This document shows, one piece after another, positions 39,159-39,704 of a stretch of 64,000 nucleotides of DNA. Made by a program: the position numbers and the translations under genes. The DNA is from Flocculibacter collagenilyticus (GTDB lineage: Bacteria > Pseudomonadota > Gammaproteobacteria > Enterobacterales > Alteromonadaceae): assembly GCF_016469335.1 (NCBI RefSeq), contig NZ_CP059888.1:3235899-3299898 (forward strand). Direction: 5' to 3'. The notes below the pieces were generated by a model that ran no database searches, was not told where the DNA came from, and saw nothing but the letters and a program-made list of their open reading frames with translations. Positions within the stretch are counted from its first letter, which is position 1; each line of letters opens with the position of its first letter.

Positions 39159-39488
39159 CTACGTTAACCTTAAATAGCTACTCACAGTTTGTTTGATAAT
39201 TGAGACTAACTCTTCATCCATGTATTGATACTCATCTGGAATATCAAGTACTTGTAAATCTTTATAATCTAGAAGCCGAGTAAACTGTGCTTTTAGCCTA
39301 CTTTTGTGTTTTTCTTCCATAACGAAAATCACATCTGCCCACTCAATGTCTTTTACATTTACCGTGCGTTTGGCTTTTGGGCTTGTTCCAGCCGATCTTG
39401 CTGCAACCTCTGGATGATTTTTCCAGACTTGCTCGCCCGTTGGGCTACGCCACTGGTTTCTACTACATATAAATAAAAGGTTTTTCAC
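39159..39488 (-). CDS. low-molecular-weight phosphatase-family protein (CX5R P-loop; LMW-PTP/ArsC-like)
   Basis: LLFICSRNQWRSP = [LIV]CxxNxxRS P-loop; DP general-acid motif (VLDIPDEY); single Cys; 109 aa. Confidence 0.55.
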   Translation of the reverse strand: MKNLLFICSRNQWRSPTGEQVWKNHPEVAARSAGTSPKAKRTVNVKDIEWADVIFVMEEKHKSRLKAQFTRLLDYKDLQVLDIPDEYQYMDEELVSIIKQTVSSYLRLT

Positions 39489-39704
39489 TTATTCATCCTT
39501 AATAGGCATTTCATCATCTAATGTTTGCCTAAGTGTCTTTCTTGGGTACTCGATACCCAGCTGTTTGGCTCTATGCAACTTCTCTGAACGACGATACGTT
39601 AACTTCCAGTTTTTCTCTGGAGTATGTCTTTTCTCTGTGAGTAGTGCTGCTTTATTTTTCTTTTGCTTTGACCGTCTCCAAAGCTTGTTTCTAGTACTGA
39701 ACAT
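39489..39704 (-). CDS. small basic protein (71 aa, no recognised family)
   Basis: Lys/Arg-rich N-half; its stop abuts the start of the phosphatase gene, and it lies between prfH and the phosphatase gene. Confidence 0.35.
   Translation of the reverse strand: MFSTRNKLWRRSKQKKNKAALLTEKRHTPEKNWKLTYRRSEKLHRAKQLGIEYPRKTLRQTLDDEMPIKDE

What the first reader, a model, noticed from the sequence alone, without database searches (positions are those of the whole stretch)
39159..39704. Uncharacterised pair inside the prfH/rtcB2 operon: 71-aa highly basic protein + 109-aa single-Cys LMW-PTP-like phosphatase
The phosphatase has the CX5R(S) P-loop (ICSRNQWRS) and a DP acid motif, but is shorter than tyrosine phosphatases and lacks the extra ArsC cysteines. 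In an RNA end-repair context a Cys-phosphatase fold enzyme could remove a 2'- or 3'-phosphate (or a 2'-PO4 junction left by ligation), rather than act on proteins. The preceding Lys/Arg-rich 71-aa ORF looks like a nucleic-acid or ribosome-binding adaptor. I cannot place either in a characterised RNA-repair family from memory.
Basis: inference. Interest (0 to 1): 0.7.

Follow-up and report, generated by a model that had tools for sequence, protein, structure and literature searches.

The report
Split mini-phosphatase in ribosome-repair operon
The two small genes are the halves of one uncharacterised protein, a stripped-down cysteine phosphatase with a basic helical head, cut in two here by a single stop codon. 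In marine bacteria it travels as the third gene of the rtcB2-prfH ribosome-repair cassette, but most of its relatives elsewhere sit alone and its substrate is unknown.

The parts
39489..39704 (-). N-terminal basic domain, here a separate 71-aa ORF. It has a bipartite motif, R5-N-K-L-W-R-R and E30-K-N-W-K...Y37..R39-S..K42..R45-A-K-Q-L-G..Y53-P54, and a pI of 10.5.
   Evidence: ORF. (collinear with the N-terminus of fused 180-188-aa homologs). (family profile, invariant columns). (three predicted helices, pLDDT 56-83). No Pfam, PDB, PADLOC or PHROG match.
39489..39491 (-). In-frame TAA that splits the two-domain reading frame (codon 72 of 182).
   Evidence: The fused homologs carry a sense codon at this position. 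Similar stops 0-8 nt before the phosphatase start occur in L006, L008, L010, L074 and L081 (in frame). They also occur in L057, L066, L067, L077 and L085 (out of frame).
39496..39500 (-). AAGGA Shine-Dalgarno-like sequence 7 nt before the GTG start of the phosphatase ORF.
   Evidence: Read directly from the sequence. That it supports re-initiation is an inference.
39159..39488 (-). Minimal LMW-PTP-fold cysteine phosphatase domain (109 aa, GTG start).
39444..39467 (-). P-loop C8-S-R-N-Q-W-R14-S15 (catalytic Cys and Arg).
   Evidence: The Cys is present in 81 of 81 loci, and CSRNQWRSP is nearly invariant across Gamma-, Beta- and Alphaproteobacteria, Myxococcota, Balneola, Holophagales and cyanobacteria.
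39228..39245 (-). D82-I-P-D85-E-Y87 loop, at the position of the LMW-PTP D-P-Y-Y general-acid loop.
   Evidence: In the family alignment the equivalents of D82, P84 and Y87 are invariant and D85 is >=90% conserved. Which Asp is the general acid was not resolved.
39785..40420 (-). prfH (peptide chain release factor H), directly upstream in the same direction.
   Evidence: TIGR03072, 250.5 bits. Adjacent to the phosphatase gene in 23 of 80 loci.
40408..41574 (-). rtcB2 (PrfH-associated RtcB RNA ligase).
   Evidence: NF007153, 549.7 bits, and TIGR03073. Function as in PMC9304027.
41575..41772 (-). Conserved structured leader of the rtcB2 operon, with the 13-codon uORF MTYTSKSFAGLVR* at 41708-41749.
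   Evidence: It was seen in passing and is the presumed 5' end of the transcription unit that includes the pair.
38295..38954 (-). ATP-dependent RNA ligase family protein (PF09414), 204 nt downstream of the phosphatase.
   Evidence: It follows the phosphatase gene in 7 other loci. It is 51% identical to the D. radiodurans MP1 ligase-like gene.
37040..38302 (-). HD-Pnk type end-healing enzyme (HD phosphoesterase plus P-loop polynucleotide kinase). Its start overlaps the ligase ORF by 8 nt.
   Evidence: Pfam HD and AAA_33, with the kinase part matching bacterial Pnkp. The architecture and ORF overlap match the Runella cluster (PMC6097658).

Best explanation
What it is (confidence about 0.9). One two-domain protein has been split by a single TAA. 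The C-terminal part (109 aa) is a minimal LMW-PTP-fold cysteine phosphatase. By analogy with that fold, it would hydrolyse a phosphomonoester through a Cys8-phosphoenzyme intermediate. The phosphate would be held by the P-loop C8-S-R-N-Q-W-R14-S15, with a general acid from the D82-I-P-D85 loop. The N-terminal part (71 aa) is a basic, helical appendage that belongs to the phosphatase and not to PrfH. Here it is probably made as a separate polypeptide. The phosphatase would then be re-initiated at the abutting GTG, behind an AAGGA Shine-Dalgarno-like sequence.

What it does (inferred, confidence about 0.4). In this locus it is co-transcribed with rtcB2-prfH and followed by RNA ligase/HD-Pnk. I propose it acts as an accessory end- or junction-cleaning enzyme on damaged translation RNA. 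It would remove a ribose-linked phosphate that neither ligation route can handle. Candidates are a terminal 2'-phosphate or a 2'-PO4 left at a ligated junction, the job done elsewhere by Tpt1/KptA. A wrongly placed 5'- or 3'-phosphate that makes the two ends incompatible is another candidate.

Shown: gene structure, fold, conserved catalytic residues, gene linkage. Inferred: catalytic activity, substrate, and the role of the basic domain as an RNA or ribosome tether.
For: - Single frame with one TAA, collinear with fused homologs.
- rtcB2-prfH lies next to the gene in 23 of 80 species loci. In 21 it is immediately upstream on the same strand; in L062 and L074 it is divergent. Gaps to prfH are mostly short (overlap to about 75 nt; a few hundred nt in L050 and L063). 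Flanks differ from genus to genus, so the three genes move as a unit.
- There are independent associations. L074 (Caulobacterales) has a 36%/52%-identical prfH-rtcB placed head-to-head. KptA/Tpt1 is next to the gene in Grimontia (17 nt downstream) and in Kangiellaceae, with NADAR and Macro.
- Ligase/HD-Pnk follows the gene in 8 loci. The same module carries Tpt1 in Runella (PMC6097658) and a TIGR02452 gene, macro/PARG-like by my recollection, in D. radiodurans. So this slot is filled in Runella by a 2'-phosphate enzyme and, if that recollection holds, in D. radiodurans by an ADP-ribose-phosphate one.
- The canonical pTyr-recognition loop (about 36 aa in Wzb) is reduced to a 15-aa basic loop, SPKAKRTVNVKDIEW. 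The P-loop carries an extra Arg and Trp.
- No kinase or other gene recurs next to the family.
- Precedent: ANGEL2, a phosphatase acting on RtcB substrates (PMC13247085).
Against: - 54 of 80 loci show no RNA-repair neighbour within 8 kb.
- 12 distant prfH-rtcB operons lack the gene, and the literature describes a two-gene operon (PMC9304027).
- Characterised enzymes with this fold act on phosphoproteins or arsenate (hit list). I know of none acting on RNA.
- The N-domain is fused once to a PP2C-like protein phosphatase (P0151).
- HD-Pnk in the same locus already supplies 2',3'-phosphoesterase activity.
- A 3'-phosphatase would undo RtcB2's substrate.
- KptA co-occurs with the gene in L050 and L009, so it is not a strict Tpt1 replacement.
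- No biochemical data exist.
Confidence: 0.4

Rival explanations
1. It is a protein phosphatase (pTyr, pArg or pSer). It would dephosphorylate a conserved translation or repair protein, such as a ribosomal protein, an elongation factor or RtcB2/PrfH itself. That would reverse either a kinase toxin or a regulatory phosphorylation. The basic N-domain would be the targeting or regulatory module.
For: - The same N-domain is fused to a PP2C-like phosphatase in P0151 (PP2C_2 E=7e-6).
- Very high conservation over the whole small domain suggests a macromolecular interface.
- Human RTCB is controlled by c-Abl and PTP1B tyrosine (de)phosphorylation (PMC13247085).
- Two thirds of the loci have no RNA-repair context.
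Against: - No kinase (BY-kinase, McsB-like or other) recurs next to the gene in 80 loci.
- NCBIfam Wzb/Etp equivalogs score 18 bits against cutoffs of 243-247.
- The loop that builds the pTyr pocket is largely deleted.
- Linkage to KptA-NADAR-Macro and to ligase/HD-Pnk is not expected for a protein phosphatase.
- The PP2C fusion is a single cluster representative with a borderline score.
Confidence: 0.3
2. It is a small-molecule ribose-phosphate phosphatase. It would clear by-products of NAD-dependent RNA repair or de-ADP-ribosylation, such as ADP-ribose 1''- or 2''-phosphate, rather than act on RNA itself.
For: - It is adjacent to KptA/Tpt1, NADAR and Macro in L009, L010, L050, L067 and L078.
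- ADP_ribosyl_GH lies two genes upstream in Stenotrophomonas.
- In two E. coli strains the gene sits directly after phnO and a phnP remnant of the ribose-cyclic-phosphate pathway.
- Phage homologs sit among nucleotide-metabolism genes.
Against: - KptA linkage occurs in only 5 of 80 loci.
- A Macro domain in the same cassettes already provides the 1''-phosphatase step.
- Whole-surface conservation and a basic tether are unusual for a small-molecule enzyme.
- The E. coli position looks like an insertion in a decayed phn operon.
Confidence: 0.12
3. The linkage is historical rather than functional. A widespread stand-alone phosphatase of unrelated housekeeping function was captured once next to prfH in an Alteromonadales ancestor and has spread with the cassette.
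For: - The prfH-linked copies are concentrated in one marine gammaproteobacterial part of the tree, interleaved with unlinked copies that are just as similar, such as Shewanella at 81%.
- Most of the family is unlinked.
- It is absent from distant prfH operons.
Against: - The three-gene unit is kept while its flanks change across at least 8 genera.
- In the remnant L055, rtcB2 and most of prfH are deleted but the leader and the phosphatase are retained.
- There are independent associations in L074, L078, L010 and L067.
- By chance, fewer than 1 of 80 loci would have prfH within 8 kb.
Confidence: 0.12
4. It is an arsenate reductase of the LMW-PTP type.
Against: - Only the P-loop Cys is conserved. 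64 of 81 domains have a single Cys and no second position is shared.
- No ars genes appear among the recurrent neighbours.
- The P-loop is CSRNQWRS rather than CTGNSCRS.
Confidence: 0.02
5. The in-frame TAA is functional recoding: programmed read-through that yields both a short and a fused product, perhaps tied to PrfH. Alternatively it marks a dying pseudogene.
For: - The stop is in frame in the window and in L006, L008, L010, L074 and L081. It always falls in the linker, and it is TAA at all of these in-frame junctions.
- Degenerate N-domain remnants exist in L027, L031, L041, L042, L049 and L053.
Against: - Equally many split loci are out of frame (L057, L066, L067, L077, L085, and by coordinates L086, L088, L089). 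Frame is therefore not conserved.
- Each split copy has its own start codon, and here an SD.
- Both halves remain intact and conserved.
- Forms that are phosphatase-only or start at the same Met are common (45 of 81).
Confidence: 0.04

Closest known systems
Bacterial LMW-PTPs and arginine phosphatases (Wzb/Etp, YwlE, PtpA; Pfam LMWPc PF01451)
   Different: - About 105 aa instead of 145-160.
- The variable loop that forms the pTyr pocket is cut to a short basic loop.
- The P-loop reads CSRNQWRS rather than C(L/T)GN(I/T)CRS.
- The acid loop reads DIPD.Y rather than DPYY.
- Only 13-28% identity.
- No kinase partner gene.
- NCBIfam equivalogs score far below cutoff.
Ssu72 (RNA polymerase II CTD phosphoserine phosphatase)
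   Different: Eukaryotic and 190+ aa with extra substrate-binding elements. No specific sequence relationship.
Tpt1/KptA RNA 2'-phosphotransferase
   Same: It occupies the equivalent genomic slot next to a ligase/HD-Pnk module in Runella (PMC6097658). It is itself found beside this phosphatase in 5 loci. It is a possible functional analogue for removing a 2'-phosphate.
   Different: Unrelated fold and chemistry: NAD+-dependent transfer rather than hydrolysis through a Cys-phosphate. It co-occurs with the phosphatase in L009 and L050, so the two are not simply interchangeable.
End-healing phosphoesterases of RNA repair (HD-Pnk, Pnkp, T4 Pnkp) and ANGEL2
   Same: Enzymes that remove 2',3'-cyclic, 2'- or 3'-phosphates and so decide which ligase can act. 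HD-Pnk is encoded two genes downstream.
   Different: All are metal-dependent enzymes of the HD, calcineurin-like, HAD or EEP folds. From my own knowledge, no cysteine phosphatase is known in this role.
Accessory genes already listed for prfH-rtcB2 operons (Burroughs and Aravind 2019, PMC6514570)
   Same: These are also sporadic additions to the two-gene core. Two of them are proteins with highly charged helical regions proposed to touch rRNA.
   Different: That list names a TPR protein, a Pol-beta NTase, a ZnR protein and a charged helical protein. It names no phosphatase. The basic N-domain here goes with the phosphatase, not with prfH.
Cysteine-phosphatase RNA 5'-phosphatases (PIR1/DUSP11, baculovirus BVP, metazoan capping-enzyme triphosphatase)
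   Same: Precedent, from established knowledge and not tested here, that C-X5-R phosphatases can take RNA ends as substrates.
   Different: They have the classical PTP/DSP fold rather than the LMW-PTP fold. They cleave phosphoanhydrides at 5' ends, and they are eukaryotic or viral.

Membership tests
LMW-PTP/ArsC superfamily (Pfam LMWPc, PF01451) | Profile match above the curated gathering score | tested here: met
   33.9 bits against 23.2, E=4.3e-8. Homologs carry precomputed PF01451.
LMW-PTP/ArsC superfamily (Pfam LMWPc, PF01451) | Four-stranded parallel beta-sheet/alpha fold with the P-loop between beta1 and alpha1 | tested here: met
LMW-PTP/ArsC superfamily (Pfam LMWPc, PF01451) | N-terminal C-X5-R-(S/T) phosphate-binding loop | tested here: met
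   C8...R14-S15. The Cys is present in 81 of 81 loci and the motif is nearly invariant.
LMW-PTP/ArsC superfamily (Pfam LMWPc, PF01451) | Catalytic Asp in a D-P-Y-Y type loop before the last helix | tested here: inconclusive
   A conserved D82-I-P-D85-x-Y87 loop sits at that position. It is not the canonical DPYY, and which Asp is the acid could not be decided without coordinates.
Canonical protein-tyrosine phosphatases Wzb/Etp (NCBIfam NF007520, NF008486) | Equivalog-level score, full length of about 147 aa with the variable (W/Y) substrate loop, and a BY-kinase neighbour | tested here: not met
   18 bits against cutoffs of 243-247. About 21 residues are missing between SAG and the beta3 region. 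No recurrent kinase in 80 neighbourhoods.
Thioredoxin-coupled arsenate reductase (pI258 ArsC type) | Two further conserved cysteines (Cys82/Cys89 equivalents) and an ars operon context | tested here: not met
   No second conserved Cys column. 64 of 81 domains have one Cys. No ars-like recurrent neighbour.
rtcB2-prfH ribosome rescue/repair system (Tian et al. 2022) | Encoded in the operon next to prfH and rtcB2 | tested here: met
   True in the window and in 23 of 80 species loci. In 21 it is on the same strand, with gaps to prfH that are mostly short (overlap to about 75 nt; a few hundred nt in L050 and L063). In 2 it is divergent.
rtcB2-prfH ribosome rescue/repair system (Tian et al. 2022) | General (core) component wherever the system occurs | tested here: not met
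   0 of 12 distant prfH-rtcB loci have it. The system is described as a two-gene operon (PMC9304027). It is not among the listed accessory genes (PMC6514570).
rtcB2-prfH ribosome rescue/repair system (Tian et al. 2022) | Acts on the damaged ribosome or 16S rRNA | not testable with these tools
   Needs biochemistry or genetics.
Tpt1/KptA RNA 2'-phosphotransferase (PF01885) | Sequence or fold membership | tested here: not met
   No PF01885 match. Genuine KptA genes lie beside the phosphatase in 5 loci. Any similarity would be functional only.
Known anti-phage defence systems (PADLOC) | Match to a defence-system protein model | tested here: not met
   No hit for either half or for the fused form.

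The most novel reading that the evidence does not exclude
The protein is the first LMW-PTP-fold enzyme that works on RNA. It would be a hydrolytic, NAD-independent 2'-phosphatase (or other RNA-end phosphatase) that completes ribosome/rRNA or tRNA repair alongside RtcB2-PrfH and the ligase/HD-Pnk pair. Its basic RAWRR/EKNWK domain would be a new RNA- or ribosome-docking module that can be supplied in cis or in trans.
Probability: 0.2. Interest if true: 0.8.

Novelty: new variant of a known kind. Interest (0 to 1): 0.5.

Why it matters
The PrfH/RtcB2 pathway is described as a two-protein system that rescues and reseals ribosomes cut in the decoding centre. A third, tightly linked and strongly conserved enzyme in a whole clade of marine bacteria would imply an extra chemical step, or a regulator, that the E. 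coli model does not show.

The ligase/HD-Pnk module next to it is the type whose ligase has resisted assays with standard ends. A variable third gene in that slot (Tpt1, a TIGR02452 gene that I recall as macro/PARG-like, or this phosphatase) sharpens the hypothesis that a 2'-phosphate is involved, and it gives a concrete protein to test.

Independently, the family is a widespread (>5000 sequences) minimal cysteine phosphatase with no known substrate. It has a partner domain that has not been described. Both are small, soluble-looking and easy to express.

Tried and rejected
1. I looked for a conserved partner gene of the stand-alone family. All-against-all clustering of ORFs within 6 kb in 80 loci found nothing beyond rtcB2, prfH, ligase, HD-Pnk and KptA.
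2. Profile and PDB searches for the N-domain found no Pfam, PDB, PADLOC or PHROG match.
3. The metagenome scan for prfH loci used generic GGQ patterns. It returned mostly RF1/RF2 and only 12 usable prfH-rtcB loci, none with the phosphatase.
4. Burroughs and Aravind 2016 (NAR) could not be read because it is not held. Whether it mentions this phosphatase is unchecked.
The accepted model still leaves the packing of the two domains unresolved (pTM 0.58). No coordinates or PAE are available, so contacts between the N-domain and the active site could not be examined.
6. A toxin-antitoxin reading of the small-basic-plus-enzyme pair was rejected, because 45 of 81 loci have the phosphatase without the N-domain.
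7. Programmed read-through was rejected, because the frame is not conserved among split loci.
8. A sigma-54/RtcR promoter upstream of rtcB2 was not found. The only good match lies upstream of the SPFH-rtcB1 operon.
9. The E. coli phn-operon position was judged an insertion into a decayed operon, not evidence of function.
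Full report
**1. The observation**

On the minus strand the window carries rtcB2 (40408-41574) and prfH (39785-40420). These are followed by a 71-aa ORF (39489-39704) and a 109-aa ORF (39159-39488, GTG start). Next come an RNA ligase (38295-38954) and an HD-kinase protein (37040-38302).

The identifications are firm. PrfH scores 250 bits to TIGR03072 and RtcB2 scores 550 bits to NF007153. The ligase matches PF09414, and the last gene matches HD plus AAA_33/Pnkp kinase.

Convergent with this operon lies an rtcR - SPFH - rtcB1 - rtcA - RlaP - 384-aa operon. 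The whole region is therefore an RNA-repair island. The organism is Flocculibacter collagenilyticus or a very close relative, since there is a 100% protein match.

The 71-aa product is very basic (pI 10.5, 21 K+R). The 109-aa product has one Cys, in the motif ICSRNQWRS.
- The 'DP' motif actually reads D82-I-P-D85-E-Y87.

**2. The pair is one split protein**

Translating 39159-39704 in one frame gives 182 codons with a single TAA at codon 72, directly followed by the GTG.

Among the best homologs of the 109-aa protein are 180-188-aa proteins from Colwellia psychrerythraea, Shewanella and others. Their N-termini align residue for residue with the 71-aa ORF. For example, the window reads ...DDEMPIKDE*VKNLLFICS, against DDEMPLKDMDMTNILFICS in P0012.

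I scored the N-domain with an HMM across 80 species loci plus the window:

| N-domain state | Loci (of 81) |
|---|---|
| Fused in frame | 26 |
| Split by an in-frame stop | 4, plus L074 |
| Split out of frame | 5 |
| Absent | 45 |

Further look-ups found the split two-gene form in Stutzerimonas, Stenotrophomonas, Pragia, a Pantoea plasmid and a metagenome contig.

The stop always falls in the linker, 0-8 nt before the start codon of the phosphatase. In-frame and out-of-frame junctions are about equally common. This looks like ordinary fission into two coupled genes, not recoding. In the window an AAGGA sits 7 nt before the GTG. Several lineages carry decayed remnants of the N-domain.

**3. The phosphatase half**

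- **Family assignment.** Pfam LMWPc is matched above threshold (33.9 against 23.2 bits). No NCBIfam equivalog comes close to its cutoff. No solved structure is a close sequence relative; the best is Wzb at E=0.006.
- **What is missing.** About 45 residues of a normal LMW-PTP are absent. Chiefly, the segment between the SAG motif and beta3 is 15 residues (SPKAKRTVNVKDIEW) here against about 36 in Wzb.
- **Conservation.** The family is extraordinarily conserved. Identity is 60-65% between Gammaproteobacteria and Beta-/Alphaproteobacteria, Myxococcota, Balneola, Holophagales and cyanobacteria. CSRNQWRSP is nearly invariant, and about 45 of 105 positions are >=90% conserved.
- **Cysteines.** Only the P-loop Cys is conserved. 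This removes the thioredoxin-type arsenate reductase reading.
- **Databases and literature.** Databases call it 'predicted protein tyrosine phosphatase'. I believe, from my own recollection, that it corresponds to COG4551. The only paper holding that term merely counts it (PMC2887360).

**4. The basic half**

A profile search of 1.84 billion representatives finds 163 relatives. An indexed search finds 492. Nearly all are 60-100-aa 'hypothetical proteins'.

The domain is bipartite. A basic RxRAWRR segment is followed by an invariant core, EKNWKxxYxRSxKLxRAxQLGxxYP. Betaproteobacterial fusions keep only the core. Some long forms carry a Cys-containing insert between the two motifs.

Besides the LMW-PTP-like domain, the N-domain is fused to two other domains:
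- once to a PP2C-like phosphatase (P0151, PP2C_2 E=7e-6);
- once to DUF1871 (P0153).

It has no Pfam, PDB, PADLOC or PHROG match. It is predicted as three helices of moderate confidence, with no confident docking on the catalytic domain (pTM 0.58).

Crucially, it is present in only 3-4 of the 24 prfH-linked loci, against about 32 of 57 unlinked ones. It is a module of the phosphatase, not an adaptor of the PrfH system.

**5. Gene-neighbourhood census**

Results for the 80 species loci:

| Neighbourhood of the phosphatase gene | Loci |
|---|---|
| rtcB2-prfH immediately upstream, same strand | 21, including the contig-edge remnant L055 |
| ...of which also followed by ligase plus HD-Pnk | 7 (as in the window) |
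| Very different prfH-rtcB, head-to-head 275 nt away (36%/52% identity) | 1 (L074, Caulobacterales) |
| Distant prfH-rtcB pair 4.5 kb away, weak case | 1 (L062) |
| KptA/Tpt1 nearby | 5 |
| No recognisable RNA-repair neighbour and no other recurrent neighbour | 54 |

- The same-strand loci come from Colwellia, Pseudoalteromonas, Paraglaciecola, Catenovulum, Fluctibacter, Motilimonas, Endozoicomonas and an uncultured Shewanella.
- The genes flanking the three-gene unit differ from genus to genus.
- KptA/Tpt1 (with NADAR and Macro, confirmed by Pfam) lies upstream of the cassette in L009 and L050. It lies next to the phosphatase without prfH in two Kangiellaceae and in Grimontia, where it starts 17 nt downstream.
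- The finding of no other recurrent neighbour for the 54 unlinked loci comes.
- Twelve distant prfH-rtcB operons from metagenomes lack the gene.
- The literature treats rtcB2-prfH as a two-gene operon and does not list a phosphatase among its occasional extras (PMC9304027, PMC6514570).

The linkage is far above chance: fewer than one of 80 loci would be expected to have prfH within 8 kb. It arose more than once. But it characterises a subset of the family, mainly marine Gammaproteobacteria, and only a subset of prfH operons.

**6. Mechanism**

What is shown:
- a catalytically intact-looking cysteine phosphatase of the LMW-PTP fold;
- tight operon linkage with RNA-end enzymes in about a third of the sampled species.

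What is inferred is the substrate. I favour a ribose-linked phosphate on RNA (about 0.4), for these reasons:
- The gene keeps company with three different RNA-end modules: RtcB2-PrfH, ligase/HD-Pnk and KptA-NADAR-Macro.
- The ligase/HD-Pnk module has a variable third partner in other organisms. It is Tpt1 in Runella, where the ligase failed on ordinary 3'-OH/5'-P ends and a 2'-phosphate role was proposed (PMC6097658). In D. radiodurans it is a TIGR02452 gene, which I recall as macro/PARG-like; this was not checked here.
- No kinase partner exists in any neighbourhood.
- The pTyr-pocket loop is replaced by a short basic loop, and the P-loop gains an Arg and a Trp.

The main rival (about 0.3) is a protein phosphatase acting on a conserved translation or repair protein. 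It is supported by:
- the habits of the fold family;
- the PP2C fusion of the N-domain;
- whole-surface conservation;
- the PTP1B/c-Abl control of human RTCB (PMC13247085).

Less likely rivals are a small-molecule ADP-ribose- or ribose-phosphate phosphatase (about 0.12) and a purely historical linkage (about 0.12).

**7. Comparison, novelty and score**

By fold and motifs this is a member of the LMW-PTP/ArsC superfamily. It fails the tests for the characterised subfamilies (Wzb/Etp-type PTPs, ArsC). It is not a core component of the PrfH/RtcB2 system.

It is best filed as a new variant of a known kind. It is a minimal, uncharacterised cysteine-phosphatase clade with its own undescribed basic partner domain, recruited repeatedly into RNA-repair gene clusters.

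Interest is moderate (0.5). The finding offers a concrete and cheap experiment on an open point: what else the PrfH/RtcB2 and ligase/HD-Pnk pathways need. But the function is not established, and most of the family lies outside RNA-repair contexts.

**8. Seen in passing**

The rtcB2 operon has a conserved, structured leader with a 13-codon uORF, MTYTSKSFAGLVR* at 41708-41749.
- A uORF of the form MTxTSxSFAGL(I/V)R* lies 116-191 nt upstream of rtcB2. It was confirmed in 20 of the 21 loci examined. Its nucleotide core is present in all 22 close loci, including the remnant L055.
- TCC TTT GCA GGT CTT is invariant even at third codon positions.
- The predicted pairings sequester both the uORF's own SD and the rtcB2 SD.
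- There is no Rfam match.

It looks like a translation-sensing attenuator and may deserve its own follow-up.

Noticed in passing
window 41575-41772 (- strand); uORF 41708-41749: There is a conserved leader upstream of rtcB2. It has a 13-codon uORF, MTYTSKSFAGLVR*, with a strong SD (TAACTGTAAAGGAG). An equivalent uORF was confirmed 116-191 nt upstream of rtcB2 in 20 of the 21 loci examined, and its nucleotide core is in all 22 close rtcB2-prfH loci. TCC TTT GCA GGT CTT is invariant at the nucleotide level. Predicted helices pair the uORF SD with uORF codons 7-10, and pair TGCCAAT/CCT with the rtcB2 SD region. MFE is -47.3 kcal/mol (z = -3.4). Only one compensatory pair was seen, and there is no Rfam family. 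It may be a ribosome-state-sensing attenuator.
   Followed up: partly
window 30930-30944 (+ strand): A sigma-54-type promoter match (TGGCACGTGACTTGT, one mismatch) lies between rtcR (29180-30784, -) and the SPFH-rtcB1-rtcA-RlaP operon. No comparable site lies upstream of rtcB2, so the two convergent repair operons appear to be regulated differently.
   Followed up: partly
L055 295-887 (Pseudoalteromonas luteoviolacea NCIMB 1944, contig_21): This is a degenerate second copy of the cassette. The rtcB2 leader/uORF is followed directly by a C-terminal fragment of prfH and by a diverged phosphatase with P-loop VCNRNQWRSA. The same strain has an intact copy (L007).
   Followed up: no
proteins P0151, P0153, P0248, P0257, P0262, P0272, P0276: The RAWRR/EKNWK basic domain also occurs fused to a PP2C-like phosphatase (P0151) and to DUF1871 (P0153). 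It also occurs in 160-230-aa forms with a Cys-containing insert (H.YGCP...C..C, G(K/R)L.KT) between its two motifs.
   Followed up: partly
L009 4169-5792; L010 5840-7707; L050 3271-4393; L067 2279-3997; L078 8356-8901: A KptA/Tpt1 - NADAR - Macro cassette (confirmed by Pfam) recurs next to the phosphatase gene or upstream of rtcB2-prfH. In Grimontia celer, KptA starts 17 nt after the phosphatase stop.
   Followed up: partly
window 35812-36966 (+ strand): A 384-aa ORF after RlaP has no Pfam, NCBIfam or PADLOC match. It is conserved in the same position after RlaP in L020 and L022 (50-69% identity). It is probably an uncharacterised member of the rtcBA-RlaP operon. Its listed TTG start overlaps RlaP by 95 nt, so the true start is probably later.
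   Followed up: no
L173 9001-9339 and L174 7001-7339 (E. coli MS 16-3 and R32_14_1F): Only 2 of 5426 complete E. coli genomes carry a family member. In both it sits just after phnO and a phnP remnant of a largely deleted phn (C-P lyase) operon, before yjdP.
   Followed up: partly
L050 7421-8005 (Endozoicomonas sp. G2_1): A 195-aa proteasome-subunit-like ORF (PF00227, E=5e-7) is inserted between prfH and the phosphatase gene.
   Followed up: no
L081 5182-5838: In a metagenome contig, the gene directly upstream of a split N-domain/phosphatase pair has weak, sub-threshold matches to several HEPN RNase families (best E=5e-5, 23.7 against 28.4 bits).
   Followed up: no
L175 3501-6204 (D. radiodurans MP1): The window-type 219-aa ligase has a 51%-identical homolog in D. 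radiodurans. There the arrangement is ligase, then a TIGR02452 gene (macro/PARG-like by my recollection, not checked here), then an AAA ATPase (HD-Pnk-like). This is a third version of the ligase/HD-Pnk module with a different accessory gene.
   Followed up: partly
window 38981-38998: A G+C-rich hairpin (GTCGAGC-AATC-GCTCGAC) lies in the 204-nt gap between the phosphatase and the ligase gene. It is followed by a T-run only on the + strand, that is, antisense to the operon.
   Followed up: no
L090 5043-5336 (Alcaligenes phage vB_Af_QDWS535) and uncultured megaphages LR756504, LR745206, LR756502: Distant homologs (31-36% identity) of the mini-phosphatase are encoded by phages. In the Alcaligenes phage the gene lies between thymidylate synthase/NTP-PPase genes and nrdAB.
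   Followed up: no
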